From assembly GCA_038323465.1 (NCBI GenBank), contig JBBQGX010000001.1:10980-74979 (forward strand): 64,000 nucleotides of DNA, read 5' to 3'. The notes under the pieces were generated by a model. That model did no database searches. It worked only from the letters and a program-made list of their open reading frames with translations, and was not told where the DNA came from. Numbering within the stretch: position 1 is the first letter of the stretch; the number at the start of each line of letters is the position of its first letter. Of the stretch, positions 17,541 through 30,557 are shown in pieces. The stretch comes from Minisyncoccia bacterium. Lineage in GTDB: Bacteria; Patescibacteriota; Minisyncoccia; Phycocordibacterales; UBA9973. The position numbers and the translations under genes were made by a program.

Positions 17541-19157
17541 CTAAATAGCATTTAATTCCATATAGAATTGTGAGCCTTTGCTTAGGCCTTCTGATTCTAC
17601 CCAGACACGGCCACCGTGGGCTTCGGCTATTTCTTTTGTCAGATACAATCCGAGTCCGGAGCCTGATGTATTCATACGAGCGCCATCACCACGAGCAAAT
17701 TTCTGGAAGAGTGTCGCTTTTATTTCAGGGGTCATACCCATACCAGTATCTAAAACAGAAAAGATAACTTTATCAGCTAATTTTTTAACAGTAACATTTA
17801 TCTCCCCTTCTTTTGTGTATTTAATAGAGTTATCAATAAAGTTTAGAACAACTTGACGAATCTTTTCCTTGTCTCCATTTACCATACAAGTATTCCCTTC
17901 GCATTCATTTTTGAAATTTAATTTAAGTCCTTTATTATTAGCTGTGATAGATAAATCCTTTGTCATACTACCTGCTACCTCTGATAGCTCAAATGGTGCC
18001 ATCTCGTACTTCATTCCACCCTGTTCTATTTTTGTTACATTAAGCAAATCCTCGACTATCTTCATCAAATTCTGGCTTGATTCAAAAATACGATTTAAAG
18101 CGCCTTTAGCTTCAAGATTTATTTCCCCATAATCACCATCTATCAACATTGAAGTATACCCTTTCATGGCAGTCAGTGGACTACGGAGTTGATGTGAAGC
18201 AAGAGAAACGAATTCAGATTTAAGTTTATCAAGTCCTTTTAGTTTTTCATTAGCATCAGACAATTCACCTGTTAACACTTCTAATTTTTCACGCTGTTCA
18301 ACTTCTTTACGAACACTTTTAATTAATAAAATTCCAACAACTATAACTATTATAAATAATGCAGTATTTATCAATTTATCTGACAAAGAATTTGCAAGTA
18401 AGGTTCTAATTAAAATAAATATCCATAGTGTAAATGTAATTAATTCTGTTGTAATTACTTTTATGTTAAATAATTGAAATTTCAAAATAGCATAACTAGT
18501 ATAAAATAAAAAAGGTAGAACAAAAAAAGAACTGAGTGTTATAAAGCTCGTATTACTTAGAAATACTGGTAAAATAAAATTAAATATGATTATCAATAAG
18601 AACATAATCAGAACACCTCTAGTAATATATACTATTTGTTGTTTAGTATTACCAGTAGATCTTTTCCTCTTTAAAAAAATTTCTCTCAGTCCAAAAAATA
18701 CTAATGATATAGCTGTAAATCCAAAAACTGGTAAGAGTACACCATGAACAGGACTAGATATCCCTGATTCATAATTAATAGCATCTTTAAATACATACGT
18801 GGTCAATGTTAAAAATGCAACTAAAATAACTGACGGAATAATCACTATTTTAAAATATTTTGGTAAGACTTTGATATTATCAGGGAAAACGTACATAAGT
18901 AAGTAAAATAAAAGAGCTTGGAGCGTTGCAAAAAACATTACAAATCGAATAAAAAAAAGATGACTAAAATATGGTATATTTTGATAGCTTAAAAAATTAA
19001 CAATACTCCATCCAATAGTTGAAATTATAAAATAAATAAAAAACCGTGAAGTAATACTTTTTGTTTTATGAGAAAATACAATAAAACCAATTATTAAACT
19101 AATTACAATACTTAAAGCAGTTGTAACAATATTGAAAGTAAAAAAATTATATTCCAT
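17541..19157 (-). CDS. Sensor histidine kinase with a large polytopic N-terminal membrane domain
   Basis: About 8 predicted TM helices and a coiled-coil linker. HisKA H-box SLASHQLRSPLT. HATPase_c G-boxes DTGMGM and GSGLGL. No response regulator gene is adjacent. Confidence 0.85.
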   Translation of the reverse strand: MEYNFFTFNIVTTALSIVISLIIGFIVFSHKTKSITSRFFIYFIISTIGWSIVNFLSYQNIPYFSHLFFIRFVMFFATLQALLFYLLMYVFPDNIKVLPKYFKIVIIPSVILVAFLTLTTYVFKDAINYESGISSPVHGVLLPVFGFTAISLVFFGLREIFLKRKRSTGNTKQQIVYITRGVLIMFLLIIIFNFILPVFLSNTSFITLSSFFVLPFLFYTSYAILKFQLFNIKVITTELITFTLWIFILIRTLLANSLSDKLINTALFIIVIVVGILLIKSVRKEVEQREKLEVLTGELSDANEKLKGLDKLKSEFVSLASHQLRSPLTAMKGYTSMLIDGDYGEINLEAKGALNRIFESSQNLMKIVEDLLNVTKIEQGGMKYEMAPFELSEVAGSMTKDLSITANNKGLKLNFKNECEGNTCMVNGDKEKIRQVVLNFIDNSIKYTKEGEINVTVKKLADKVIFSVLDTGMGMTPEIKATLFQKFARGDGARMNTSGSGLGLYLTKEIAEAHGGRVWVESEGLSKGSQFYMELNAI

Positions 19158-19177
19158 AATAATTATATATTAACATA

Positions 19178-20203
19178 TTATTCACTAATTACATCTTGAC
19201 TTAACAATCTTGGACTATGTTTAGTATTTTTTACAGGAACTCCCATCCTGAAAAAAAACTGAGGGTGATTTTTTGTCTTTAATATGCTCACTAATTTAAA
19301 TGAGTTTGATCCAATCTGTATAGGTGCGGCATATGGATGAGTAACCATACCCAAAGAAGTAGCACGTAGAGTATACAAACCATACTGATAACCGACTTTT
19401 ACCCAATCAAAAACTGTATCTCTTTCTGTTTCTAATATACAAAAAACTGGGGTGTGTTTTTTTAAAATATTTAAATCATCCTTTTCTGTTATTTTGTTCA
19501 TATTTATTCTTTTTATTAAAAAAGGAGCAAATAATGAAGCTATAAGTGGTATGCCCATTCCATAAGCTGGCATCCCAACAAAAGACTTAGTAATATTTGT
19601 TTTTATATATCCGGAAAGCTCTTCTCTAAAAAGAGAATCATTCATAGCTTCTATCCCTGCAGAAATAACAATATCTGCTATTTTATTTTTTATCTCATCC
19701 TTCCATATAAATTCTGATATTACACCAGACACTTTATATTTTGAAAAATATTTAATTTTATTTAGATCAATAGAATTTAAATATTTATTCCTATTAGTAA
19801 CTCTATTTATAATATTAACAAATAACCGAGAATAATTTTTTATATTATCTATGTTTTTTTTACAAACAATATTAATATCTCCATCGTCATTTATAAAATA
19901 ACTAGCACTATAACCAAAATTATTTGCAGTAACAATAAAAAAGGCAGTCGAAACTCCTAAACTTATGTATAACTGCCGATTATTTTTATCGCTTGATTCT
20001 AATCTTCTAGAAAAATCTGGTGAGATAATAACTCCACTATCATTTACAGTAAAATGCCAAGGTTGAGTATTGTGTGAAGATGGAGCTAATAACGCATATT
20101 TTAGAAAAAATTTATAATACTCTTTATCGCTAAAATTAGTGTCTAATAATTTTAAACTTTCATCCCATTCACTATAATTAATATTTTTTATTTTTTTACC
20201 CAT
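19178..20203 (-). CDS. Nitroreductase-superfamily protein with two tandem NTR-like halves (Acg/SagB-like)
   Basis: Hallmark APSSHNTQPWHF motif in the first half. A second NTR-like half follows. Total 341 aa. Confidence 0.7.
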   Translation of the reverse strand: MGKKIKNINYSEWDESLKLLDTNFSDKEYYKFFLKYALLAPSSHNTQPWHFTVNDSGVIISPDFSRRLESSDKNNRQLYISLGVSTAFFIVTANNFGYSASYFINDDGDINIVCKKNIDNIKNYSRLFVNIINRVTNRNKYLNSIDLNKIKYFSKYKVSGVISEFIWKDEIKNKIADIVISAGIEAMNDSLFREELSGYIKTNITKSFVGMPAYGMGIPLIASLFAPFLIKRINMNKITEKDDLNILKKHTPVFCILETERDTVFDWVKVGYQYGLYTLRATSLGMVTHPYAAPIQIGSNSFKLVSILKTKNHPQFFFRMGVPVKNTKHSPRLLSQDVISE

Positions 20204-21705
20204 TTATGTTTACCTTTACTTATAAAGTATTTTTTATTTTCATAAGGCCAAAATAATATATGTGGATCTGCTTTATTACCAAGATTTTTATGATTATTCC
20301 TATATTCTGAATTTTCTAGAAGAAGATTATTTTTAATAGATTCGGCTATATCAATTTTTACTTTTGTTTTTAAATCTTGTCCAAGTTTATTTTCTATATG
20401 AATAAATAACCTCTGGTCCTGATTTTTAGTCATTCTAATTTCAAGTGTACACTTCCCTGTAAAAAATTCGTTAAATTCTTTCTTTAAAAGAACTTTTCTT
20501 ATTGTTTCAGGATAAATATTTGCTCCATAGAAACTAACTGAGAAATCTTCTCTTTCATATATATAAACAAACGGGATTTTCCAAACAGTATCATATATTT
20601 TTACTTTTTTAGCTTCTTTTAGTAGATCTATTCCTGAATTTTTTGCAATATTTATCATTTCCTCATAACTATAAATCCCACCTAAGTCTTTTAGGTCGTA
20701 GCGGAATAATGGCAAACCACTTGAAGATGAACATATAATATTATTATTTACATTTTCAAAATAAAACTGCTCTGGGATGTACTGAGTCAATGTTGGTAAT
20801 TTGTAATTGTTTCCAAATAATTCTGTATAAAACTTATGATTTTTTAAAGCCAAAGTTCTTATTAATACTGATATGGGCGTCTCGTATGATTTAGTCCCAA
20901 TATCAACCGTTCCATAATGATTCAAGGTGTCTTTATAATAGTTCTTTAAATGAGTTTTTTTCGCTATGTAATCTCTGAAATCTTCAGAAAATCCTTCTGC
21001 AGAAAAAATAAATTTAACATTATAGTCTTCCCATTTTAATTTATTTGTAATACTAAAATCAACAAAATCTTTTATGAATGGTGGGTAACCACCGATTATT
21101 ATTTGGTCAAAATATGGAGCAAACTTTTTGAGGGCATTATATATTTCAGTCTTATTAATACCTGGATTTATTATGCTTATTTTATACTTACCTTTTTCAG
21201 AGATATGTTTAATCGCTTGGTAGGTAAATAAACCCCCGATCCAAACCCCCATAGCAAATCCATTTATATACAGAGTTGATTTTTTATCAATATCAAAATT
21301 AGTTAATAGGTACAATTCTGCAGTCAATGCATATTGTAAATCTTGCATATTTGTTCTTGGGAAATAAAAAGGTTCACCAGTTGATCCTGAAGTAGAGGAA
21401 ATAACCCATGAAGTATTATTAAAATCTCCATTCCAACATAAATCTTTTAAATCAGACTTTTTTAAATAAGAATCTTTTGAGATAATAGGTAGGTTTTTTA
21501 TATCAGCAATTTTTTTTATTTCTCTACTATCTACATTTTTTTCTTTCAGTAATTTCTTATATGCAGGAACACAGACTGCCATTTCTTTGAAAAGTCTTAG
21601 TACCGACTCTTCTCCTCTTTTAATCCAGTATTTTTCAGATTTATTCTTGAGATATTTTAAGAATAAATGACTATTTTTGAAATATTTTTCTATTGGATAT
21701 ACCAT
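20188..21705 (-). CDS. PaaK/CapK/F390-synthetase-like adenylate-forming enzyme
   Basis: P-loop SSTSGSTGEPFYFPRT typical of phenylacetate-CoA-ligase-family ANL enzymes. At 505 aa it has an N-terminal extension relative to PaaK. Confidence 0.65.
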   Translation of the reverse strand: MVYPIEKYFKNSHLFLKYLKNKSEKYWIKRGEESVLRLFKEMAVCVPAYKKLLKEKNVDSREIKKIADIKNLPIISKDSYLKKSDLKDLCWNGDFNNTSWVISSTSGSTGEPFYFPRTNMQDLQYALTAELYLLTNFDIDKKSTLYINGFAMGVWIGGLFTYQAIKHISEKGKYKISIINPGINKTEIYNALKKFAPYFDQIIIGGYPPFIKDFVDFSITNKLKWEDYNVKFIFSAEGFSEDFRDYIAKKTHLKNYYKDTLNHYGTVDIGTKSYETPISVLIRTLALKNHKFYTELFGNNYKLPTLTQYIPEQFYFENVNNNIICSSSSGLPLFRYDLKDLGGIYSYEEMINIAKNSGIDLLKEAKKVKIYDTVWKIPFVYIYEREDFSVSFYGANIYPETIRKVLLKKEFNEFFTGKCTLEIRMTKNQDQRLFIHIENKLGQDLKTKVKIDIAESIKNNLLLENSEYRNNHKNLGNKADPHILFWPYENKKYFISKGKHKWVKK

Positions 21706-21717
21706 AAAATTACATGT

Positions 21718-22791
21718 TTATCTATATTTATTTATGATAGATAAACCAATATTTTCAGAAACCATAAACGGAGGTAATTTCTTTTTTTTACTTTCTAAAA
21801 AAATTTTATTTAAAACCATAGCGATCTTATTAATCTTTTTCATCAACCTTTTGTCATTTTGTTTTCCATATACATACTCATCGATTACTGAAATCAAACC
21901 TCCAGAATTTACAATATAGTCTGGGCAATACAATATACCCTTTTTATGCAATTCTTTACCAATCTCTATATCTGTTAATTGATTATTGGCTGAACCAACA
22001 ATAATCTTACACTTTAAATCTTTTATAGATTTATCATTTAAAGCACCAGAGAGTGCACAAGGACAGAATACATCTACTTTTTGTTTGTGAATTTCTCCAA
22101 CTGGAGCTACTTTCACAAATGGATATAATTTCTTTATTTCTTTTAATCTATTTTTATCAATATCAGCAATATAAATATTTTTAGCTCCTCCATTAATCAA
22201 AATCTTAAGAATTTCCATCCCAACTTTTCCTACCCCTTGGATAGCGTAAGAATATTTTTCATATTTTTTATCTTTAAATACATTAAGAAGGGCCACGTCT
22301 AGTGATTTTATGACACCTAATCCTGTAGCTTTTTCTGGATTTGCAACATAACCAACTAAGTATTTAGTATATTTCTTCATGTATTCCAAGTCTCCAACAT
22401 TTAGACCAACATCTGTTCCTGTTACAAATACACCTCCAAGCTCATTTAAACCTTCTGCATAAGCTCTCAATAACTTTTCTCTTGAAAACTTTCCTTTTGG
22501 TTTTACGATTACTGCTTTGGCACCTCCATAAGGTAATCCTGCGAGTGCGCTTTTATAAGACATCAATCTCCCCAAACGTAGAGCATCTCTAAGCCCATCT
22601 TTTTTAGAAGGATAGTCCCATAATCTTGTTGCTCCAAAAGAAGGAAGATTTTTATTTCTTTTATGAACAGCTATATAAGCATCTAATTTTGCTTTTTTAT
22701 CTTCCAAATGAACAACCATAAAATGATTGTTATACTCTGAAAGTGGCAATAAGAATTCTGGTTGAATTATCTTTGTATTATTTTTTTTCAT
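21718..22791 (-). CDS. Glu/Leu/Phe/Val dehydrogenase family (leucine/phenylalanine dehydrogenase-like)
   Basis: Catalytic-lysine region GLPYGGAKAVI. Rossmann NAD domain GVGKVG. The 357-aa length matches Leu/Phe dehydrogenase. Confidence 0.75.
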   Translation of the reverse strand: MKKNNTKIIQPEFLLPLSEYNNHFMVVHLEDKKAKLDAYIAVHKRNKNLPSFGATRLWDYPSKKDGLRDALRLGRLMSYKSALAGLPYGGAKAVIVKPKGKFSREKLLRAYAEGLNELGGVFVTGTDVGLNVGDLEYMKKYTKYLVGYVANPEKATGLGVIKSLDVALLNVFKDKKYEKYSYAIQGVGKVGMEILKILINGGAKNIYIADIDKNRLKEIKKLYPFVKVAPVGEIHKQKVDVFCPCALSGALNDKSIKDLKCKIIVGSANNQLTDIEIGKELHKKGILYCPDYIVNSGGLISVIDEYVYGKQNDKRLMKKINKIAMVLNKIFLESKKKKLPPFMVSENIGLSIINKYR

Positions 22792-23852
22792 ATAGAAAGA
22801 TTATAATGACGAACAATTGATAATTCTTTATTGTTTTCTATTATCTCTTTTATCGCGAAAGTCACTACAACTCCCCCATAAATAGCAGCACTACCAAGTT
22901 GTGACCATGAGACAAGCTCTTTATCCATAACTTTCTTTACTGAAGCAATCATTTTAGGATCAACTTTATCAAATCCTCCTACAATATCATTAATTATGAT
23001 GCCACCAGCATCTTCTTTTGTAATCTTTTTATTCTTTAAATAATTCCAATGTTTAATATCTTTATCAAAAATTTTCTTATAACCTAAATCATAACGTTCA
23101 ATATGAAGTACTACTCCGTCACCATTATCGGTAATCATAATAACAGGAATTTTATATTTATAAGCTAATATACGAACCTCAATTTTCATCAAGATATCAT
23201 CAATCTCTTCTATTATGCAGTCTAACTTTTTATTTTTTAATAAAATTTCAAGATTTATTGTATTAACACCCTTTTTCATAAGTGTTACTTTTGCATATGG
23301 ATTATCCTCATATATACGACGAGAAGCAACGGTTGTTTTATTTAAACCAATCTGATGAACACCAGCTAATATTCTATTTAAATTCGTAGTATCTAAGTTA
23401 TCAAAATCTGCAATTGTTATTGAGTTAGAAATTCCGGCCTGAGTGAGAACAAAAGCGATATTACTACCAACACTCATACCAAAAACACCAACCTTGTAAT
23501 TAGAAAGCTTTTTCTGTTCTTCTTTTGTTATTAGATCTTGATTTCGATTAGTCTTAAGAGTTAAATAATCATTTTTAGTGATAATTTTTACCATAGTGTG
23601 ATTCCATGGGTAGTATACATGCGTATAATTCTTTTCATTAACTTTAACAAAGTTAGCAAAATCATTACTTTTGTAAACCTTTTTCTTATCTTCTCCTATA
23701 AAATGATGATTTTTTATAAAGAAAAGTTCTTTTAATTGAAAAGAAAAAGCATCTACATATGTAGTGTGTGGATTCTTTTTTAGAAAAATATTTACTATTT
23801 TATCATCTTTAAAAAAAATAGGACTATCACTCAAATTATTACTTGTATTCAT
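22788..23852 (-). CDS. ThiF/MoeB/E1-like adenylyltransferase with a ~100-aa N-terminal extra domain
   Basis: Rossmann GxGxxG (VGVFGMSVGS) followed by the E1 motif ADFDNLDTTNLNR. No CxxC zinc pair or rhodanese domain was noticed. Confidence 0.7.
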   Translation of the reverse strand: MNTSNNLSDSPIFFKDDKIVNIFLKKNPHTTYVDAFSFQLKELFFIKNHHFIGEDKKKVYKSNDFANFVKVNEKNYTHVYYPWNHTMVKIITKNDYLTLKTNRNQDLITKEEQKKLSNYKVGVFGMSVGSNIAFVLTQAGISNSITIADFDNLDTTNLNRILAGVHQIGLNKTTVASRRIYEDNPYAKVTLMKKGVNTINLEILLKNKKLDCIIEEIDDILMKIEVRILAYKYKIPVIMITDNGDGVVLHIERYDLGYKKIFDKDIKHWNYLKNKKITKEDAGGIIINDIVGGFDKVDPKMIASVKKVMDKELVSWSQLGSAAIYGGVVVTFAIKEIIENNKELSIVRHYNLSI

Positions 23853-23894
23853 ATATAATTAGATTATACCATAAGGTATAATTATTGTAAAAAT

Positions 23895-24947
23895 TTAAAC
23901 CTCGGATTGTTGCATGGTAATACAGTGAAGGCCACCACCACCATAAATTAATTTTGTACAATCTATTTTTATTATTTTACGATTTGGAAATAATGATTGA
24001 ATTATTTCTATTGCCTTCTCATCATTTGGATCATTAAAAATAGGCATCAAGATAATAGTATTCCCGATGTAAAAATTTGTATATGATACTGGAGCCTTTT
24101 CTCCACTATTATAATTCATATGAGGCATTGGTAATTTAATGACTTTAAATTTATTACCATCTTTATCTGTAGCATTTTCTAATACCTTATAGTTATCATC
24201 CAATATAGAATAATTAGGGTCATTTATATCATCTTCATAAGCACAAACTATAGTATTTTGGCTCACAAAACGAGCTATCTCATCTATGTGTCCATCGGTA
24301 TGATCATTTGTTAGTCCTTCTTTGAGCCAAATAATATTAACTACTCCAAAATAATCTTTTAAATATTTTTCTATTTGAGGTTTTTCAACATTACCATTTC
24401 TATTTGTATTTAGGAGGCATTGCTCTGTTGTTAGAAGTGTACCTTCTCCATTCACTTCTATTGCTCCACCTTCGAGTACTATACCTGTCCTAAATATTTT
24501 ATTTTTTGAGTCATTTAAAATACTATCAAATACTTTATCATCTTTCATTAAGTCAGAAAAATAAGGATCATCTTTTTTGCCATAAGCATTGTAATCCCAA
24601 TTCACATAAGCGAGATCAACTCTCTCTGTACTCCGTAAGGTTATAGGTGTATAATCTCGAGTCCAAACATCAGCATAATCTTTTATAAAAAAGATTACTT
24701 GGGATAAATTTACATTATTATTATTTAAAATATCTTGTATTCGAATTTTTTCTATTTCATTTAAAACTAAAATATTTATAATCTCATTTTCCTCTAGTGC
24801 TTTTACAATATCACAATAAGTTTTTTCAATCTCAGGTATTAATCCTGGAAAAGTCGTATCATCATATGGCCAAGCAAGCCAAGTGGCTGAATGATTTTCC
24901 CATTCTGCTGGCATATAGTAGCCTTGTTCTTTTGGAGTTAATTCCAT
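23895..24947 (-). CDS. aguA: Agmatine deiminase
   Basis: Porphyranase-type agmatine deiminase fold with the C-terminal catalytic signature GGGGLHCITMQQ. Confidence 0.85.
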   Translation of the reverse strand: MELTPKEQGYYMPAEWENHSATWLAWPYDDTTFPGLIPEIEKTYCDIVKALEENEIINILVLNEIEKIRIQDILNNNNVNLSQVIFFIKDYADVWTRDYTPITLRSTERVDLAYVNWDYNAYGKKDDPYFSDLMKDDKVFDSILNDSKNKIFRTGIVLEGGAIEVNGEGTLLTTEQCLLNTNRNGNVEKPQIEKYLKDYFGVVNIIWLKEGLTNDHTDGHIDEIARFVSQNTIVCAYEDDINDPNYSILDDNYKVLENATDKDGNKFKVIKLPMPHMNYNSGEKAPVSYTNFYIGNTIILMPIFNDPNDEKAIEIIQSLFPNRKIIKIDCTKLIYGGGGLHCITMQQSEV

Positions 24948-24948
24948 A

Positions 24949-25818
24949 TTACTTTTTAGAAATTTTATTTGTTATTAATTTATAAGTATCAGGTCTACGA
25001 TTACGCATAAAGCCCCAACTCTCTGATATATAATTATTCATTTCTAAATCTAAAGTTTCAACAACAATCTCTTCTTTATTCTTACTTGCTTTTTTTAATA
25101 TTTTTCCAAAAGCATCAGAAACGAATGATTGACCCCAGAAGTCAGACTTACCCTCTATTCCAGTCCTATTTACGGCTATTACAGGTAGACTATTGGCAAT
25201 AGCATGTCCTCTCATCACAGTCTCCCAGGCATCATGCCAGTCACCTTCTATAGGAATTTCTCCTACTATATTACCTATAGCTGTAGGGTAAAATATCATT
25301 TCAGCACCTCCGAGCTTGGCCATACGAGCAGCTTCTGGAAACCATTGATCAAAACATATCAAAACTGCATAAGTGATATTTTTATGTTTAAATAATCTAT
25401 AACCATTATCCCCTTCAGTAAAATAATCTTTTTCGTAAAATCCTGGATCATGTGGTATATGAATTTTTCTATAAAAGGGTTGTATTTCTCCTTTTTCATT
25501 TAAAACAACAACAGTATTAAAGAATTTACCATTTTTAGCTTTTTCATAAATTGGCAAGATAATAGAGCATCCATATTTTATTGATATAGATTTAAATACT
25601 TCTGTAGATTCGCCTGGAATAGTTTCGGTAAAAGTTGAGATATCTACACCTTTTTTATTTGGGAAATATGGTGTTTTGTATAATTCTTGTAGACAAATAA
25701 TCTCGGCTCCATTTTGAGCGGCAACTTCCACCATATCTAAAGTTTTATCAAGATTTAATTTTAAATCATCGGAAACTTTACTTTGGACTAATCCAATTGT
25801 AATAATTTTTTTCTTCAT
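24949..25818 (-). CDS. aguB: N-carbamoylputrescine amidase (carbon-nitrogen hydrolase family)
   Basis: Nitrilase-superfamily E-K-C triad context (CLQELY ... ICFDQWFPE). It lies adjacent to aguA. Confidence 0.8.
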   Translation of the reverse strand: MKKKIITIGLVQSKVSDDLKLNLDKTLDMVEVAAQNGAEIICLQELYKTPYFPNKKGVDISTFTETIPGESTEVFKSISIKYGCSIILPIYEKAKNGKFFNTVVVLNEKGEIQPFYRKIHIPHDPGFYEKDYFTEGDNGYRLFKHKNITYAVLICFDQWFPEAARMAKLGGAEMIFYPTAIGNIVGEIPIEGDWHDAWETVMRGHAIANSLPVIAVNRTGIEGKSDFWGQSFVSDAFGKILKKASKNKEEIVVETLDLEMNNYISESWGFMRNRRPDTYKLITNKISKK

Positions 25819-25839
25819 GGTGTTTAAAAGCTTTGTAAA

Positions 25840-26862
25840 TTATATATACTTTTTAATTATCTCGTTGGCTTCTGTAGGATTCTTTTTACATTCAAGTAGT
25901 GCTGTCAACATTAGAGGCACCACGATTGTAGCGTCTGATTCTATTACGAACATTGGGGTATCTTTTGTAAGTTTATCCCAAGTAATCTTCTCGTTTGGAG
26001 TAGCACCTGAGTAAGAACCATATGAAGTTGTTGAATCTGAAATTTGGCAGAAATAAGCCCATGGTTTAACATTTTCTACCTCCATATCATACTTGAGAGA
26101 TGGGACTACGCATATAGGGAAATCTCCTGAGATACCACCGCCGATTTGGAAGAATCCGATACCCTCACCTTTTGAAAGTTCTTGGTATTGATCATAAAAG
26201 GCTCCCATGTATTCGATACCCGACTTGGCAATACTGGCACTACATTCACCTATTTTGACATGAGAAGCGAAAATATTTCCAAAAGTTGAATCCTCATAAC
26301 CTGGAACAACAATAGGGATATTATTCTCTGCTGCTGCAAGAAGCCAACATTCTTCTGCTTTACCTTCATGTTCGCTTTTATCTATCTGCTTGATCAAGTC
26401 ATAAAAATATTCATGCCAAAATTTACGAGTACCGTCCTCTGTTGCTTTTTTCCATGTAGGAACAATATGCTTTTCAACTGCACGAAATGCTTCGTCTTCT
26501 GGAATACTTGTATCTGTCACACGACGCATACGATCCTCGAGGATTTTAGTATCGTCTTCTTTTGTAAAATATCTATAGTCAGGAAAATCTTTATAACTAT
26601 CATGAGCTACAAGACGAAAAAGTGATTCTTCTATATTTGCACCTGTAACAGACATACCAGAGATAAGACCTTCACGGATAGCTGGAGCAAGAGTTATTCC
26701 AAGCTGAGCAGATGACATAGCACCACCCATAGCCCAAAACATTTTGCCTCCTTTTTCTATATGTTGCCAATAAGAGATAAGTGCATCTTTTGTTGCACGA
26801 GAATTAAAATTCTTGTAATTTTTTAGAATAAATTCTAATGTAGGTAGATTTGATTTTTCCAT
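25840..26862 (-). CDS. Deoxyhypusine synthase-like protein (DHS / homospermidine synthase family)
   Basis: DHS-family motifs MSVTGANIEESL and a glycine-rich NAD site. Length 340 aa. It is embedded in the polyamine operon. Confidence 0.75.
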   Translation of the reverse strand: MEKSNLPTLEFILKNYKNFNSRATKDALISYWQHIEKGGKMFWAMGGAMSSAQLGITLAPAIREGLISGMSVTGANIEESLFRLVAHDSYKDFPDYRYFTKEDDTKILEDRMRRVTDTSIPEDEAFRAVEKHIVPTWKKATEDGTRKFWHEYFYDLIKQIDKSEHEGKAEECWLLAAAENNIPIVVPGYEDSTFGNIFASHVKIGECSASIAKSGIEYMGAFYDQYQELSKGEGIGFFQIGGGISGDFPICVVPSLKYDMEVENVKPWAYFCQISDSTTSYGSYSGATPNEKITWDKLTKDTPMFVIESDATIVVPLMLTALLECKKNPTEANEIIKKYI

Positions 26863-26907
26863 AATATTTTTAATTATTAATTAGTAATTTTTAATTCTTT
26901 TATTATA

Positions 26908-28293
26908 CTACCAGCCGAAATTTTTACCAATATCTTCAGGAGATTCATGTTTTTTTGCAACTACAACATGTCCATTCTCTACTAAGATTTTCATAGGGGA
27001 CGAAAGCATGCAGTGCTGAGCAGCAAGTGAAGTTTGATATGCACCTGTGTCATAAACAACTATATACATGGGTCCCTCACTAATATCATTAGAGTCAAAT
27101 TCAGGTAGTGTAACAACTCCATCAACTCCCGTATAGATATCATCGGAATCACAAGATGAACCTGCAAGCCATACATCGGTCAAATCCCCATCCCTCTTAT
27201 TATTTACAGGTGAAATAGCCCATTTTTGCCCTATAGCCCAAGTATCAAGGAGATCATTCATAAAGCTACCATCTATCACATACCATTTTTTAGCAGGACT
27301 TTTCTTATTATTAATAGGTTTTGTATTTATAACTTTAAAGACTGAAATTTGAGCAGGAGCAACTATATAGCGACCCCATTCACAAACAAGATTTGGATGT
27401 GGAAGTTCTCTTTTTTCAGATTCTTTTTTAATAAGTTCAAAAATTTTCTCCATCAATTTATCTACAGGGTAGCCTTTGGTCCTCATATATGGTATTGGCA
27501 TACCTCCACCGATATCAAGAGTATCGAGAGATGGATTCTTTTCTTTTAATTTGAAAAAAACATCTAGTGCGTATTTAATTGGTCCAATCACATCAGAAAG
27601 TTTTTCAATTTGAGATCCAATATGATAGTGGAGTATTTTCAAATTTTTAAAAGTACTCATATCAAGAATTTCTTTGGCAGAAAACCCAAAACGATCAATA
27701 GGTTTATTCCAATAAGAACTAGCCTTGATAGGCATGTCTAGGCGGATACCGACATCGTATTTTGAATATTGTAAAAATTTAAGTTCATTGGGTCCTTCAA
27801 TGAGTGGGAAAATTTTAACACCTTTGTGTTGCAGGTCGTCAATCAGATTGATGTAATTATCGGTTTTTGGACCAGAGCAAAGAATACGGATATTCGGATT
27901 GAAAGTCTCTTGATCAAGCATTTTCTTGACCATCCAAAGTTCATTGTACGAAGAAGTCTCCAAATGAGCTCCTTCACCAACAATAGACATAACTATTTCT
28001 TTACTTTGGTTTACCTTCATCGGATAATGATAAAAGAATTTACCCTTATATCCAACTTTCTTTGAAAGTGCAGCAGCTAAATCAAGAAAGTCTTCTAAGC
28101 GTTCTTCTATCACAAAAGGCATCAGTATCTCTAGTGATGTCCCAAACTTTTCGGCTAAATATTTAACATTATAAATATTGTGACCTTCTTTAATTATGAG
28201 ATCTCCCTCCTTATTAAAATCAAAATACTGAGTATTGAAATCATTGACACCAAGCTTCCAAAGTTTCTTGGAAGCGATTGAACGTTTAGTCAT
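26908..28293 (-). CDS. PLP-dependent fold-III decarboxylase, probably arginine decarboxylase feeding the agmatine route
   Basis: PLP-lysine motif YHYPMKVNQ. TIM-barrel plus beta-sandwich architecture of Orn/DAP/Arg decarboxylases. It sits first in the operon with aguA/aguB. Confidence 0.7.
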   Translation of the reverse strand: MTKRSIASKKLWKLGVNDFNTQYFDFNKEGDLIIKEGHNIYNVKYLAEKFGTSLEILMPFVIEERLEDFLDLAAALSKKVGYKGKFFYHYPMKVNQSKEIVMSIVGEGAHLETSSYNELWMVKKMLDQETFNPNIRILCSGPKTDNYINLIDDLQHKGVKIFPLIEGPNELKFLQYSKYDVGIRLDMPIKASSYWNKPIDRFGFSAKEILDMSTFKNLKILHYHIGSQIEKLSDVIGPIKYALDVFFKLKEKNPSLDTLDIGGGMPIPYMRTKGYPVDKLMEKIFELIKKESEKRELPHPNLVCEWGRYIVAPAQISVFKVINTKPINNKKSPAKKWYVIDGSFMNDLLDTWAIGQKWAISPVNNKRDGDLTDVWLAGSSCDSDDIYTGVDGVVTLPEFDSNDISEGPMYIVVYDTGAYQTSLAAQHCMLSSPMKILVENGHVVVAKKHESPEDIGKNFGW

Positions 28294-28394: not shown

Positions 28395-30557
28395 TTAACC
28401 AACTAATTCTTTTTTTGTTCTCAGGTATTGATTGTTGAGATCAATGATTGATTGAGGTATTTTTCTTTCTTGTATAATTCTTAGTTCATCATACAAACCA
28501 CTCAAAATATCTTTCATATTACCCACATTGTTTTGTTTTGTAAATTTTTCTATACCATAACTATTAGATATAGATGGTATCGGAACTTTTAAAACACTAG
28601 TTCCTGAAGATTTTTTAAGTTCCGCTTCTTTATTAGTTATATTTGTTGTCATTTCTGTTAATTTAGTATCAAAATCAAATAAAACATCTTCCCATTCTTT
28701 TTTACCCTTCCCTGTAAAGAAAAACTTTGGTTTCTTTAATTCATAATCACTTTTTTTTACAGAATAAATACGGATATCTTTTTTGCCTTGATCTATTTCA
28801 GACTGAAGACTCTCTATTTTTTTATCAATCGAGGGTATTCTAATAAGACCACGACTAAAATTTATATCATTATCTGCTGGTACAGAAGATTCAAACTTAG
28901 TAAGTTCCTCTATGGCTTCCAGTGCTTGTTTTCCACGAGATTCAAATTCTTTTATAACTGAAGTTATCTGGTTTAAATTAACAGCTCTTAATTCTATTTC
29001 TTCTCCTTTCTGTATTCCATCTCTAAATTCTACTTCAGCTAAATAAAAATCAATAACAGATTTCATTTTATTAATAACCTTCTCTTTATCCTCTTCTATT
29101 TTCTTAATAAAATCTTCAACATATAGTTTTTCCTCATCAAAAGAAGTATCTTTATTGGGTGATTTTTTATGATAGCTCCCACCAAGAGAATAAGGTTCAT
29201 TACCATAATGCATTGAACTATTTATAGAAACAGTTTCCTCGCAAATGTTTTTTCCAAACAAATAAAAATCATTTTCATTTTTTATATTTTTTAATTTATC
29301 TATATTAGCTTTTAAATCCTGAGTTCTAATTTCTAAAACGCCTTGCAGTTTAACATAATTAAATTCTGGTATAAATTTATCACGACTCTCTAAATTTTCT
29401 TTAAATTTAAGACCTTTATTTTTATCAAAAGAATCCTCTGGTTTAAAAGATAATATATAATCAATACTGGCTGAACCATCTCTATATCCGTATTCGAATT
29501 TTTTAATATCAACTGAAACCCCAAAATTTTTATACAGCTCTGTGTGTTTTTTCTCTAATTCATGAATAAATTCTCTTTTTACTTGTTCGAATTTATCCAT
29601 AAGAGATCTTGCTTTACCTTTCTCTTCTTCAGAAAAAGATGATATTCCTTCTTTTGCCTTTTTTAAATCTAAAACAACTGAATTTTTTTCAAAAGATTCA
29701 TTAATTTTATCACTATAAAATTTTTTTAATGTTTCTTGTAGTACATCTTTTCCATAAACAGATTCAGTCTTCATAACTTCTTTATCATTTGATAAAAGTT
29801 CTGGAGCAAAGACAAAATTATCAATATTTACATGGTCATTTTCAACTTTAATCTCTAATCCTTTTACATAAAGAATAATTTTTTGACCTTCATTTTCAAT
29901 ATTAAAAGTTACCGGAGTAATATCCTTTTCTAGTTCTTTTGAAAGATTTTCTATGATCATTTCTCTCTCTTCTGGAATTTTTACTTTTTCTTTAATTAAT
30001 TCATTTTCAATCTTCCCAAGTCTTTCATTTATGGAATTACTTAAAAAAGTATAAAAATAATCATGACTTGACTCTTCTTTTGGAATTACAACACCTAATT
30101 CTTGTAACTTTAAAATAAGAGCTTCATTTGTCTCTTTTAATCCATCTTTATTTAATAATGATTTTTTGTAATCTAATACTTCATCTGCATCAGGATTTTT
30201 ATCAACCAAATCCTCCGTATTTTTAATACCAGCTTCTTCTAAAACACTCTTTAATTCAGGGTCTTTATCGGCACTTTCTATAATAGAGTCTAAGGTAACC
30301 TTACTAGAAGAAACTTCATTCATGACTTGATTTCTATATTCTTTCATCCCTGTACCACTTTCTTTTTTATTACTTGAATCTGATTTAAAATTCAAAGAAT
30401 TCTGAATTATTTCAAGTAATTGTTTTTGATTTTCAAGTTTTTGAATATTAGAATTTGCTACTTCAACTTCTCCTTTCTTTATTTCTTGCCCTTCTTTTTC
30501 TTTTTGAGATCTTAAATCATTTGCTTTATCTAGAAATGACGCCTTGATTGTTACCAT
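28395..30557 (-). CDS. Large K/E-rich hypothetical protein (720 aa) immediately downstream of dnaJ
   Basis: Long ORF whose composition is consistent with extended helical/coiled-coil segments. No TM helix or signal peptide. No recognisable catalytic motif. A 46-bp gap from dnaJ suggests co-transcription. Confidence 0.6.
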   Translation of the reverse strand: MVTIKASFLDKANDLRSQKEKEGQEIKKGEVEVANSNIQKLENQKQLLEIIQNSLNFKSDSSNKKESGTGMKEYRNQVMNEVSSSKVTLDSIIESADKDPELKSVLEEAGIKNTEDLVDKNPDADEVLDYKKSLLNKDGLKETNEALILKLQELGVVIPKEESSHDYFYTFLSNSINERLGKIENELIKEKVKIPEEREMIIENLSKELEKDITPVTFNIENEGQKIILYVKGLEIKVENDHVNIDNFVFAPELLSNDKEVMKTESVYGKDVLQETLKKFYSDKINESFEKNSVVLDLKKAKEGISSFSEEEKGKARSLMDKFEQVKREFIHELEKKHTELYKNFGVSVDIKKFEYGYRDGSASIDYILSFKPEDSFDKNKGLKFKENLESRDKFIPEFNYVKLQGVLEIRTQDLKANIDKLKNIKNENDFYLFGKNICEETVSINSSMHYGNEPYSLGGSYHKKSPNKDTSFDEEKLYVEDFIKKIEEDKEKVINKMKSVIDFYLAEVEFRDGIQKGEEIELRAVNLNQITSVIKEFESRGKQALEAIEELTKFESSVPADNDINFSRGLIRIPSIDKKIESLQSEIDQGKKDIRIYSVKKSDYELKKPKFFFTGKGKKEWEDVLFDFDTKLTEMTTNITNKEAELKKSSGTSVLKVPIPSISNSYGIEKFTKQNNVGNMKDILSGLYDELRIIQERKIPQSIIDLNNQYLRTKKELVG

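What the first reader, a model, noticed from the sequence alone, without database searches (positions are those of the whole stretch)
19178..23852. Co-directional four-enzyme module of unknown function between the polyamine genes and a sensor kinase
Four genes are packed without gaps and include overlapping stop/start codons:
- a ThiF/E1-like adenylyltransferase with an extra ~100-aa N-terminal domain;
- a Leu/Phe/Val-dehydrogenase-family enzyme;
- a PaaK/CapK-like adenylate-forming ligase (SSTSGSTGEP P-loop);
- a 341-aa protein with two tandem nitroreductase-like halves (APSSHNTQPWHF).
An E1-like protein plus a nitroreductase-like dehydrogenase recalls azoline-forming RiPP machinery, but no YcaO and no precursor-peptide ORF is present. 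An amino-acid dehydrogenase plus an aryl/acyl-acid ligase suggests that a keto-acid or arylacetate is activated and transferred. The acceptor could be the polyamine made by the upstream genes, or a protein, by analogy with hypusine-type modification given the adjacent DHS-like gene. I do not recognise this combination as a known pathway.
Basis: inference. Interest (0 to 1): 0.72.

Follow-up and report, generated by a model that had tools for sequence, protein, structure and literature searches.

The report
Oxazolone-type enzyme cassette with sensor kinase
The four packed genes are real and, together with the neighbouring membrane sensor kinase, form a cassette conserved across the ultra-small Patescibacteria (CPR); two of its enzymes match the recently discovered oxazolone synthetase, so it most likely makes a small oxazolone-type molecule tied to signalling, not a polyamine or peptide modification.

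Summary
Four co-directional minus-strand genes lie at 19178-23852. They encode a ThiF-like enzyme, a Leu/Phe-type amino-acid dehydrogenase, a PaaK-fold ligase and an Acg-like flavoenzyme (FDO).

It matches the two halves of oxazolone synthetases (OxzB, TyzB/TyzC, TrzS=Rv1355c).
- ThiF versus an Rv1355c-family protein: 30% identity, E 7e-48, N-terminal extension included.
- FDO family versus the Rv1355c FDO half: hhalign probability 99.7%.
- The two are fused in six relatives.

The known systems use an acyl-CoA N-acyltransferase. It is absent here, and the ligase plus dehydrogenase stand in its place.

In 49 Patescibacteria loci with full flanks:
- ThiF accompanies the ligase in 49;
- a HisKA_7TM histidine kinase in 46;
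- the dehydrogenase (33) or an aminotransferase (11), never both, in 44;
- the FDO in 38;
- a receiver-only response regulator in 30.

DH-ligase, ligase-ThiF and DH-ligase-ThiF fusions also exist. So the "flanking" kinase (17541-19157) belongs to the cassette. The polyamine genes are linked in 0 of 80 relatives and are separated by a promoter-like site. No YcaO and no conserved small ORF were found.

Best reading: an ATP-driven route to an oxazolone-type molecule coupled to a dedicated two-component sensor. The chemistry and the signalling role are inferred. I rate it a new variant of a known kind.

The parts
23863..23891 (-). Promoter-like site (TTTACA, 17 nt, TG-TATAAT) in the 42-nt gap between the aguA stop and the ThiF start
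   Evidence: 11 of 12 hexamer matches plus an extended -10 TG; second-best site in 15 kb. The total number of sites in the region is not above the shuffle expectation. Sequence read.
22788..23852 (-). ThiF-like ATP-dependent cyclase (homologue of TyzB and the N-half of TrzS) with the family's N-terminal extension
   Evidence: NCBIfam PRK07877 'Rv1355c family': E 3.7e-66, residues 24-342 against profile 30-325 of 722. BLASTP against a Mycobacterium dioxanotrophicus Rv1355c-family protein: 30% identity over residues 15-337, E 7e-48. All 15 tblastn hits in plasmids are Actinomycetota; those I fetched lie in genes annotated 'Rv1355c family protein' or 'ThiF family adenylyltransferase'. The Gly-rich loop, NLNR and D-x4-K-x3-R motifs are at least 95% conserved in 72 CPR homologues.
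21718..22791 (-). NAD(P)-dependent amino-acid dehydrogenase of the Leu/Phe/Trp branch
   Evidence: Pfam ELFV_dehydrog_N and ELFV_dehydrog. PDB sequence hits: LeuDH 6acf 2e-63, TrpDH 5b37 2e-58. The equivalents of catalytic K68, K80 and D115 are invariant. The pocket positions are Gly (47/47) and Leu (38/49), as in phenylalanine dehydrogenase.
20188..21705 (-). PaaK-fold adenylate-forming ligase of a distinct, mostly Patescibacteria family
   Evidence: No Pfam hit. The AF2 model matches PaaK1, BT_0428 and ClxA. More than 3400 homologues were found, and the top 120 are 50-66% identical. There are 495 representatives at E<=1e-30.
19178..20203 (-). Acg-like monomeric flavin-dependent oxidase/desaturase (FDO), subtype D1
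   Evidence: NCBIfam Acg family 2.9e-46; residues 26-140 also hit the C-half of PRK07877. hhalign of the D family against the Rv1355c-family FDO half: probability 99.7%, E 7.7e-26, 305 columns. D is fused to ThiF in six loci.
17541..19157 (-). HisKA_7TM membrane histidine kinase, a conserved member of the cassette
   Evidence: Pfam HisKA_7TM, HisKA and HATPase_c. It is adjacent in 46 of 49 complete loci and in L001-L003, L094 and L095.

Best explanation
The four genes and the adjacent 7TM histidine kinase form one cassette that is widespread in Patescibacteria (CPR). I propose that it makes an oxazolone (azlactone)-type small molecule from amino-acid-derived building blocks, and that this molecule is functionally tied to the kinase.

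Proposed steps:
1. The dehydrogenase interconverts a bulky or aromatic amino acid and its 2-oxo acid. In some lineages an aminotransferase does this instead. The enzyme class is shown; the direction and the substrate are inferred.
2. The PaaK-fold ligase adenylates a carboxylic acid, possibly that 2-oxo or aryl acid. It joins the acid to the amino group of an amino acid without an acyl-CoA N-acyltransferase, giving an N-acyl amino acid. This step is inferred. ClxA and NatL2 are the precedent for PaaK-like amide/ester ligases.
3. The ThiF-like enzyme adenylates the carboxylate of the N-acyl amino acid, and the amide oxygen closes the 5(4H)-oxazolone ring. This follows from homology to TrzS, TyzB and OxzB, where the reaction was shown biochemically.
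4. The FDO desaturates C-alpha to C-beta, by homology to TyzC and the FDO domains of TrzS and OxzB.
5. The 7TM kinase has no extracytoplasmic domain and is usually paired with a receiver-only response regulator. It perceives the hydrophobic, labile product, or a derivative of it, in the membrane. This resembles synthase/sensor pairs such as CqsA/CqsS. This step is inferred from linkage only.
For: ThiF and FDO match oxazolone synthetase:
- ThiF hits NCBIfam 'Rv1355c family' at 3.7e-66, against 1.2e-18 for the next ThiF model.
- BLASTP gives 30% identity, E 7e-48, N-terminal extension included.
- All 15 tblastn hits among 72,556 plasmids are Actinomycetota; those I fetched lie in genes annotated 'Rv1355c family protein' or 'ThiF family adenylyltransferase'.
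- The FDO family aligns with the whole FDO half of Rv1355c proteins (hhalign 99.7%). Both CPR FDO subtypes do so, and both occur fused to ThiF.
- The biochemistry of the homologues is published in PMC12856293, PMC10404671 and bioRxiv 10.1101/2020.06.11.147165.
- The best solved-structure match of ThiF is TcdA, another oxazolone-forming dehydratase (PMC12596934).

One pathway:
- Conserved clustering is shown.
- Fusions: DH-ligase (L049, P0137), ligase-ThiF (L017, P0122), ThiF-ligase (P0213, P0342), DH-ligase-ThiF (P0218, 1242 aa) and ThiF-FDO (six loci); FDO-hydrolase in L001.
- The dehydrogenase and the aminotransferase are mutually exclusive (33 versus 11 loci, never both).

Ligase as the acylating enzyme:
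- No acyltransferase family recurs in the 80 loci.
- The actinobacterial neighbour proteins have no homologue in the CPR loci or the window.
- The ligase has the PaaK fold, and ClxA, an amide/ester ligase, is among its structural matches (PMC12519233, PMC9400959, PMC7204872).

Kinase:
- It is present in 46 of 49 loci, and also in a ligase clade only 30% identical to the window's.
- The response regulators are 122-137 aa and receiver-only.
- The authors of the oxazolone papers themselves suspect a signalling role and report hydrolysis with a half-life of hours.
Against: - No product, substrate or ligand has been shown for any member of this cassette.
- The ligase could be a true CoA ligase, or could act on something else.
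- The defining N-acyltransferase of known oxazolone systems is absent.
- ThiF and FDO both score below the NCBIfam family cut-offs (223.8 versus 476; 158.4 versus 199).
- Direct BLASTP of the window FDO against an Rv1355c protein is weak (E 9e-4).
- The FDO is missing near the ligase in 11 of 49 loci, and the dehydrogenase/aminotransferase in 5 of 49. The invariant core is therefore ligase + ThiF + kinase.
- TrzS desaturation needs O2 (PMC12856293), whereas many Patescibacteria are anaerobes (my own knowledge).
- No response regulator is found in this 64-kb window.
- Linkage with a kinase does not show that the kinase senses the product.
- Cyanobacterial homologues of the ligase occur without ThiF or FDO.
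Confidence: 0.4

Rival explanations
1. The chemistry is the same (an oxazolone or N-acyl-dehydroamino-acid product), but the product is not a signal. It would be a membrane lipid-like compound, an antimicrobial or host-directed effector, or a reactive acyl donor that the accessory alpha/beta hydrolase transfers onward. The kinase would only control or report on the pathway.
For: - Mycobacterial oxazolones are discussed as lipids, and N-acyl tyrosine derivatives have antimicrobial activity.
- An alpha/beta hydrolase recurs in 13 of 80 loci and is fused to the FDO in L001.
- Saturated oxazolones are activated acyl species (general chemistry). Some cassettes lack the FDO.
Against: - The kinase is retained more constantly than the FDO or the dehydrogenase (46 versus 38 and 44 of 49).
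- The linked regulators have no DNA-binding output. Simple transcriptional control of the operon is therefore not the obvious role.
Confidence: 0.25
2. The ligase and the ThiF-like enzyme do something other than oxazolone formation. They could make a different heterocycle, for example a diketopiperazine or pyrazinone later desaturated by the nitroreductase-fold enzyme. Or they could modify a macromolecule (a protein C-terminus, the kinase itself, or tRNA as TcdA does).
For: - Most characterised ThiF-like enzymes act on proteins, peptides or tRNA (PMC12596934).
- TcdA is the best solved-structure match.
- Cyanobacterial homologues of the ligase lie next to Ser/Thr kinases without ThiF or FDO. 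That could mean the ligase family acts on or with kinases.
- Nitroreductase-fold cyclic-dipeptide oxidases exist (AlbA; my own knowledge).
Against: - The ThiF protein is far closer to the small-molecule Rv1355c/TrzS family than to TcdA or MccB (E 7e-48 versus about 5e-7).
- It shares that family's N-terminal extension and its FDO partner or fusion.
- A dehydrogenase or aminotransferase points to a small amino or keto acid substrate.
- No conserved small ORF or carrier protein is present.
Confidence: 0.12
3. One reading: the activated acid is transferred onto the polyamine made by the upstream genes, or onto a protein through the DHS-like enzyme.
For: The only evidence is adjacency in this window: speA, DHS-like, aguB and aguA at 23895-28293 lie on the same strand.
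Against: - None of the four polyamine genes lies within 8 kb of the ligase in 80 relatives.
- A separate promoter-like site precedes the ThiF gene.
Confidence: 0.03
4. An azoline/azole RiPP (TOMM-like) pathway with an unrecognised precursor peptide.
Against: - No YcaO-like family recurs among the neighbours.
- No small-ORF family is shared by more than 5 of 80 loci, and those found look like antisense shadows of flanking genes.
- The median spacing between core genes is about -5 nt.
Confidence: 0.02
5. Four unrelated housekeeping enzymes (Leu dehydrogenase, MoeB/ThiF, PaaK, nitroreductase) that happen to be adjacent.
For: Each protein belongs to a large housekeeping superfamily.
Against: - Linkage is conserved across Patescibacteria classes, and there are multi-domain fusions.
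- All scores are far below the equivalog cut-offs for ThiF, MoeB, PaaK and ScyB.
Confidence: 0.02

Closest known systems
TrzA/TrzS (Rv1356c/Rv1355c) and TyzA/TyzB/TyzC of Mycobacterium tuberculosis; OxzA/OxzB of Pseudoalteromonas rubra (N-acyl oxazolone biosynthesis)
   Same: - A ThiF-like ATP-dependent cyclase with the same N-terminal extension.
- An Acg-like monomeric flavin oxidase next to it or fused to it.
- A small-molecule pathway with no carrier protein or precursor peptide.
- The split (Tyz-like) and fused (Trz/Oxz-like) forms both occur among the CPR cassettes.
   Different: - There is no acyl-CoA N-acyltransferase (OxzA/TyzA/TrzA).
- A PaaK-fold ligase and an amino-acid dehydrogenase or aminotransferase are present instead.
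- A 7TM histidine kinase is linked almost obligately.
- Sequence identity is only about 30% for ThiF and lower for the FDO.
- The hosts are Patescibacteria, not Actinomycetota or Proteobacteria.
ClxA / NatL2 (PaaK-like ligases of benzoxazole biosynthesis)
   Same: They have the PaaK fold. They make an acyl-adenylate and then couple it directly to a nucleophile, without CoA. ClxA is among the structural matches.
   Different: About 14% identity. Their substrates are aminohydroxybenzoates. They are not linked to ThiF, an FDO or a kinase.
PaaK phenylacetate-CoA ligase / BT_0428
   Same: Best structural match (TM 0.79 normalised to the target). Same P-loop type.
   Different: 15% identity. The window protein is about 80 residues longer. 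There is no paa catabolic context. NCBIfam PaaK score is 24 bits against a cut-off of 646.
Autoinducer synthase / membrane sensor-kinase pairs (CqsA/CqsS, LqsA/LqsS, RpfF/RpfC)
   Same: Biosynthetic genes lie directly beside a polytopic membrane histidine kinase that has no large extracytoplasmic domain. The expected product is hydrophobic and labile.
   Different: The enzymes and the kinase sensor domain are unrelated. No ligand has been demonstrated here. This comparison rests on my own knowledge of those systems.
TcdA (tRNA ct6A dehydratase)
   Same: A ThiF-like enzyme that closes an oxazolone ring by adenylating a carboxylate. It is the best solved-structure match by sequence.
   Different: It acts on tRNA. 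It lacks the N-terminal extension and an FDO partner. Similarity is much weaker (E 5e-7).

Membership tests
Oxazolone synthetase systems (OxzAB / TyzACB / TrzAS) | ThiF-like cyclase homologous to the TrzS/TyzB/OxzB cyclase, N-terminal extension included | tested here: met
   NCBIfam PRK07877: E 3.7e-66, profile positions 30-325. BLASTP: 30% identity, E 7e-48, residues 15-337.
Oxazolone synthetase systems (OxzAB / TyzACB / TrzAS) | Conserved ThiF adenylation Asp (D217 in TrzS) | tested here: inconclusive
   IEEID-x4-K-x3-R aligns with IEECD-x4-K-x3-R of the M. dioxanotrophicus homologue. The Asp, Lys and Arg are at least 95% conserved in 72 CPR sequences. I had no M. tuberculosis sequence, so identity with D217 is not verified.
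Oxazolone synthetase systems (OxzAB / TyzACB / TrzAS) | Acg-like flavin-dependent oxidase adjacent to or fused with the ThiF protein | tested here: met
   hhalign 99.7%, E 7.7e-26 over 305 columns. Six ThiF-FDO fusions. Adjacent in 38 of 49 loci.
Oxazolone synthetase systems (OxzAB / TyzACB / TrzAS) | Adjacent acyl-CoA-dependent amino-acid N-acyltransferase (OxzA/TyzA/TrzA) | tested here: not met
   No acyltransferase is among the recurrent neighbour families. phmmer with the actinobacterial neighbour proteins and a GNAT gave 0 hits in the CPR loci and the window. Those queries are not confirmed TrzA orthologues.
Oxazolone synthetase systems (OxzAB / TyzACB / TrzAS) | Score above the NCBIfam 'Rv1355c family' cut-off (476 bits) | tested here: not met
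   223.8 bits for ThiF and 37.3 bits for the FDO. The model is a 722-position fusion, so a split protein cannot reach the cut-off alone.
Oxazolone synthetase systems (OxzAB / TyzACB / TrzAS) | Product is a 4-ylidene-oxazol-5(4H)-one | not testable with these tools
   Needs LC-MS/NMR of expressed enzymes.
PaaK phenylacetate-CoA ligase | PaaK-type two-domain adenylate-forming fold and P-loop | tested here: met
   Foldseek against 2y27: E 3.8e-23, TM 0.68 (query) / 0.79 (target). TSGSTGEP motif.
PaaK phenylacetate-CoA ligase | Sequence membership (TIGR02155 cut-off 646 bits) and paaABCDE catabolic context | tested here: not met
   24.2 bits. No Pfam hit. No paa genes among the recurrent neighbours.
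Leu/Phe/Trp dehydrogenases (ELFV family) | Both ELFV domains and the catalytic Lys/Lys/Asp | tested here: met
   Pfam 71 and 61 bits, above the cut-offs. The K68, K80 and D115 equivalents are invariant in 47 sequences.
Leu/Phe/Trp dehydrogenases (ELFV family) | Equivalog of a named enzyme (ScyB tryptophan dehydrogenase, cut-off 600) | tested here: not met
   264.6 bits. The Gly/Leu pocket pair resembles PheDH, but specificity was not tested.
Acg-family FMN oxidoreductases (FDO) | Full-length match to the family profile above its cut-off (199 bits) | tested here: not met
   158.4 bits, E 2.9e-46, covering profile positions 3-319 of 319: full-length homology, but below the curated cut-off.
TOMM / azoline RiPP machinery | YcaO cyclodehydratase and a precursor peptide gene | tested here: not met
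   Neither appears among the recurrent neighbour families or small ORFs of 80 loci. The window module leaves no room for them.
Signal synthase / sensor-kinase cassettes | Biosynthetic genes conserved next to a polytopic membrane histidine kinase, with a response regulator | tested here: met
   Kinase in 46 of 49 loci and regulator in 30 of 49. No regulator is found in this window.
Signal synthase / sensor-kinase cassettes | The kinase responds to the product of the neighbouring enzymes | not testable with these tools
   Needs biochemical or genetic assays.

The most novel reading that the evidence does not exclude
Patescibacteria, which have almost no biosynthetic capacity, keep a dedicated small-molecule signalling system across the phylum. 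In it, a CoA-independent route (dehydrogenase or aminotransferase, then PaaK-fold amide ligase, then ThiF cyclase, then flavin desaturase) builds a labile oxazolone-type autoinducer from scavenged amino acids. A 7TM histidine kinase senses the molecule in the membrane and signals through a CheY-like receiver, possibly to type IV pili or host-attachment functions. This would be the first assigned physiological role for biological oxazolones, and the first cell-cell or host-sensing chemistry described in CPR bacteria.
Probability: 0.27. Interest if true: 0.85.

Novelty: new variant of a known kind. Interest (0 to 1): 0.68.

Why it matters
- The physiological role of enzymatically made oxazolones is an open question in the papers that discovered them. 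Those papers raise signalling only as a speculation.
- This cassette welds the oxazolone-synthetase pair to a sensor kinase in dozens of species. That makes the signalling idea directly testable.
- It also shows a second way to supply the N-acyl amino acid, through an ATP-dependent ligase instead of an acyl-CoA transferase. This may suit organisms thought to lack fatty-acid and CoA metabolism (my own knowledge; not tested here).
- For Patescibacteria biology, it is one of very few conserved specialised-metabolite and two-component modules in tiny genomes. It is therefore a candidate handle on how these episymbionts sense each other or their hosts.
- The ligase family has no Pfam model and is annotated as 'phenylacetate-CoA ligase'. 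That annotation is probably wrong.

Tried and rejected
1. Polyamine linkage. I searched 80 related loci for aguA, aguB, the DHS-like gene and speA within 8 kb of the ligase and found none.
2. RiPP reading. I clustered 1176 small ORFs (20-90 aa) in and around the cassettes. No family was shared by more than 5 loci, and those found look like antisense shadows of flanking genes.
3. Acyltransferase search. Recurrent-family clustering of 1185 neighbour ORFs found only an alpha/beta hydrolase (13 loci) and housekeeping genes. phmmer with actinobacterial neighbour proteins gave 0 hits.
4. Tandem-half test of the FDO. hhalign of the N-half against the C-half was not significant.
5. Structure of the FDO. 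The single-sequence model was unusable (pLDDT 32.8), so no fold search was run on it.
6. My first iterated FDO profile was contaminated by ThiF-FDO fusion proteins. I rebuilt it from stand-alone sequences only.
7. Literature. 'Oxazolone' plus 'Patescibacteria' returned only oxazolone-induced colitis and allergy-model and gut-microbiota papers, none on biosynthesis. The Saccharibacteria genetics paper does not mention ThiF, nitroreductase or two-component systems. HisKA_7TM appears only in domain censuses. A search on Patescibacteria biosynthetic gene clusters and antiSMASH/RiPP listed only general surveys by title; I did not read them.
8. Non-CPR ligase homologues in cyanobacteria do not carry the cassette.
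9. I could not obtain the M. tuberculosis, P. rubra or TyzC sequences. Residue-level checks (D217, R540) and placement in the FDO-A versus FDO-B subgroups remain open.

Full report
**What is there**

The region 19178-23852 holds four minus-strand ORFs.
- A: 22788-23852, 354 aa.
- B: 21718-22791, 357 aa.
- C: 20188-21705, 505 aa.
- D: 19178-20203, 341 aa.

A and B overlap by ATGA. B and C are 12 nt apart. C and D overlap by 16 nt. D is 20 nt from the next gene, a histidine kinase at 17541-19157.

Upstream on the same strand lie speA-like, DHS-like, aguB and aguA genes (23895-28293). Downstream of the kinase the next gene is a convergent cysteinyl-tRNA synthetase. The window has about 27-36% G+C, and its nearest relatives are Patescibacteria (CPR) metagenome-assembled genomes.

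**The four proteins**

- A carries a Pfam ThiF domain at residues 104-239 only. The whole protein, N-terminal extension included, matches the N-terminal half of the NCBIfam 'Rv1355c family' model (E 3.7e-66). The next ThiF/MoeB model scores 1.2e-18.
- B has both ELFV dehydrogenase domains. It is about 40% identical to leucine and tryptophan dehydrogenases of known structure.
- C has no Pfam hit. Its AlphaFold model (pLDDT 87.5) superposes on PaaK1, BT_0428 and, more distantly, the amide/ester ligase ClxA.
- D matches the Acg-family FMN oxidoreductase model over its full length (E 2.9e-46). Its N-terminal part also matches the C-terminal half of the Rv1355c model.

**The key identification**

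A literature search for Rv1355c, ThiF and nitroreductase showed that this pair is a known enzyme system.
- OxzB of Pseudoalteromonas rubra is a ThiF-nitroreductase fusion that converts N-acyl tyrosine into an oxazolone (bioRxiv 10.1101/2020.06.11.147165).
- In M. tuberculosis the split pair TyzB/TyzC and the fusion TrzS (Rv1355c) do the same for N-acyl tyrosine and N-acyl tryptophan. ThiF carries out ATP-dependent cyclisation, and the flavin-dependent oxidase (FDO) carries out O2-dependent desaturation (PMC10404671, PMC12856293).

I tested the relationship directly.
- tblastn of A against 72,556 plasmids returned only 15 hits, all in Actinomycetota. The hits I fetched lie in genes annotated 'Rv1355c family protein' or 'ThiF family adenylyltransferase'.
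- BLASTP of A against the Mycobacterium dioxanotrophicus Rv1355c-family protein gives 30% identity over residues 15-337 (E 7e-48). The match includes the N-terminal extension (YYPWNH against YYPWRH) and the IEE-x-D-x4-K-x3-R motif.
- D alone aligns only weakly with that protein (E 9e-4). A profile of 61 CPR homologues, however, aligns with the whole FDO half of four Rv1355c-family proteins (hhalign probability 99.7%, E 7.7e-26, 305 columns).
- The best solved-structure relative of A is TcdA, which also closes an oxazolone ring (PMC12596934).

**Conservation and membership of the cassette**

The ligase has more than 3400 homologues. The best 120 are 50-66% identical and those that carry a name are almost all Patescibacteria. 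There are 495 representatives of 50%-identity clusters at E<=1e-30.

I fetched 80 loci from species-representative genomes and scored their ORFs with profiles built from the cassette proteins. Forty-nine loci have at least 5 kb on both sides of the ligase. Among those 49:

| Partner of the ligase | Loci |
|---|---|
| ThiF | 49 |
| HisKA_7TM histidine kinase | 46 |
| Dehydrogenase | 33 |
| Class I/II aminotransferase | 11 |
| Dehydrogenase or aminotransferase (never both) | 44 |
| FDO | 38 |
| Receiver-only response regulator | 30 |

Gene order varies (B-C-A-D-HK, A-B-C-D-HK, AT/A-C-D-HK), but the linkage persists.

None of the four polyamine genes lies within 8 kb of the ligase in any of the 80 loci. 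In the window, a TTTACA-17-TGnTATAAT site lies in the 42-nt gap before the ThiF start.

The cassette survives even around a ligase clade only 30% identical to the window's: 7TM-only protein, ligase, ThiF, 7TM kinase, regulator. The invariant core is therefore ligase + ThiF + kinase. The dehydrogenase or aminotransferase, the FDO and an alpha/beta hydrolase (13 of 80 loci) are frequent additions.

**Fusions**

Full-length domain fusions tie the enzymes into one pathway.
- ThiF-FDO in six loci.
- Ligase-ThiF (L017, P0122).
- ThiF-ligase (P0213, P0342).
- Dehydrogenase-ligase (L049, P0137).
- Dehydrogenase-ligase-ThiF (P0218, 1242 aa).
- FDO-hydrolase (L001).

Two FDO subtypes, only about 18% identical to each other, occupy the same slot. 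Both are homologous to the Rv1355c FDO half and both occur as ThiF fusions.

**What is missing**

- No acyltransferase family recurs in the neighbourhoods. The N-acyl amino acid synthase of all characterised oxazolone clusters is therefore absent.
- No YcaO and no conserved small ORF is present.
- No response regulator, aminotransferase or hydrolase is found in this 64-kb window.

**Mechanism proposed**

Shown by homology: a ThiF-type cyclase and an FDO of the oxazolone-synthetase kind, an amino-acid dehydrogenase with intact catalytic residues, and an adenylate-forming ligase.

Inferred:
1. The dehydrogenase, or its aminotransferase substitute, interconverts an amino acid and its 2-oxo acid. 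Its pocket carries Gly (47/47) and Leu (38/49) where leucine dehydrogenase has Ala113 and Val291. This is the pair that characterises phenylalanine dehydrogenase (the PheDH correspondence is from my own knowledge). It suggests a bulky or aromatic substrate, as in all known oxazolones.
2. The ligase replaces the acyl-CoA transferase and forms the N-acyl amino acid through an acyl-adenylate. PaaK-like ClxA and NatL2 are the precedent (PMC12519233, PMC9400959, PMC7204872).
3. ThiF cyclises this intermediate.
4. The FDO desaturates it.
5. The 7TM kinase perceives the product. In the window the 7TM region is joined directly to HisKA. Longer homologues carry a GAF domain in between.

The last step rests only on near-obligate linkage, on the receiver-only regulators, and on analogy with synthase/sensor pairs.

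**Rivals**

The main rival keeps the chemistry but makes the product a lipid, an effector or an acyl donor rather than a signal. A second rival doubts the chemistry and proposes another heterocycle or a macromolecular substrate. The cyanobacterial ligase homologues, which sit beside Ser/Thr kinases without ThiF or FDO, keep that possibility open. The RiPP, polyamine and housekeeping readings are essentially excluded.

**Novelty**

The ThiF+FDO pair is a known kind. I found no paper describing the rest of the combination: a PaaK-fold ligase and a dehydrogenase or aminotransferase in place of the acyltransferase, a distribution spanning many Patescibacteria lineages, and the dedicated 7TM kinase. 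The library does not cover all journals. I rate the finding a new variant of a known kind, with interest 0.68.

Noticed in passing
L092 4755-10512; L093 4920-10509: Cyanobacterial homologues of the ligase (34-36% identical to a divergent CPR member, P0250) stand alone. They lie divergently next to two Ser/Thr protein kinase genes, with no ThiF or FDO. The ligase family thus sits beside signalling kinases in two phyla.
   Followed up: partly
window 19178-20203; L005, L006, L008, L009 versus L023, L049: There are two FDO subtypes, about 18% identical to each other. The window has subtype D1, whereas its closest-synteny relatives (ligase 56-63% identical) have D2. The FDO seems to have been swapped within an otherwise conserved cassette.
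   Followed up: partly
L001 10656-12560; L064 13649-14593; L095 5750-6631: An alpha/beta hydrolase is an accessory member of the cassette in 13 of 80 loci, and is fused to the FDO in L001. It is absent from this window.
   Followed up: partly
L071 6752-9504 (also L075, L078): In Gottesmanbacteria the cassette, which lacks the FDO and the dehydrogenase there, sits directly beside type IV pilus genes pilB/pilC (T2SSE, T2SSF), with the receiver gene in between.
   Followed up: no
L094 7256-7942: A stand-alone 228-aa protein consists only of the HisKA_7TM membrane domain. It lies immediately upstream of the ligase, in addition to the full kinase.
   Followed up: no
window 23895-28293 (-): This is a compact polyamine operon: arginine decarboxylase-like, deoxyhypusine/homospermidine-synthase-like, N-carbamoylputrescine amidase and agmatine deiminase. 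It is not linked to the cassette in any relative.
   Followed up: partly
window 28395-30557 (-): A 720-aa Lys/Glu-rich, apparently coiled-coil protein of unknown function lies upstream of the polyamine genes. I did not search it against any library.
   Followed up: no
L086 4836-6610: On a Streptomyces plasmid, the closest ThiF homologue is followed by a GNAT acetyltransferase, and no FDO is annotated. This may be another variant of the pathway.
   Followed up: no
L010, L019, L021, L024, L036, L038, L041, L046, L057, L064, L068, L070, L075: Several TPA_asm records that carry the typical CPR cassette are titled 'uncultured Gammaproteobacteria' or 'Polyangiaceae'. These are probably mislabelled bins.
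   Followed up: no
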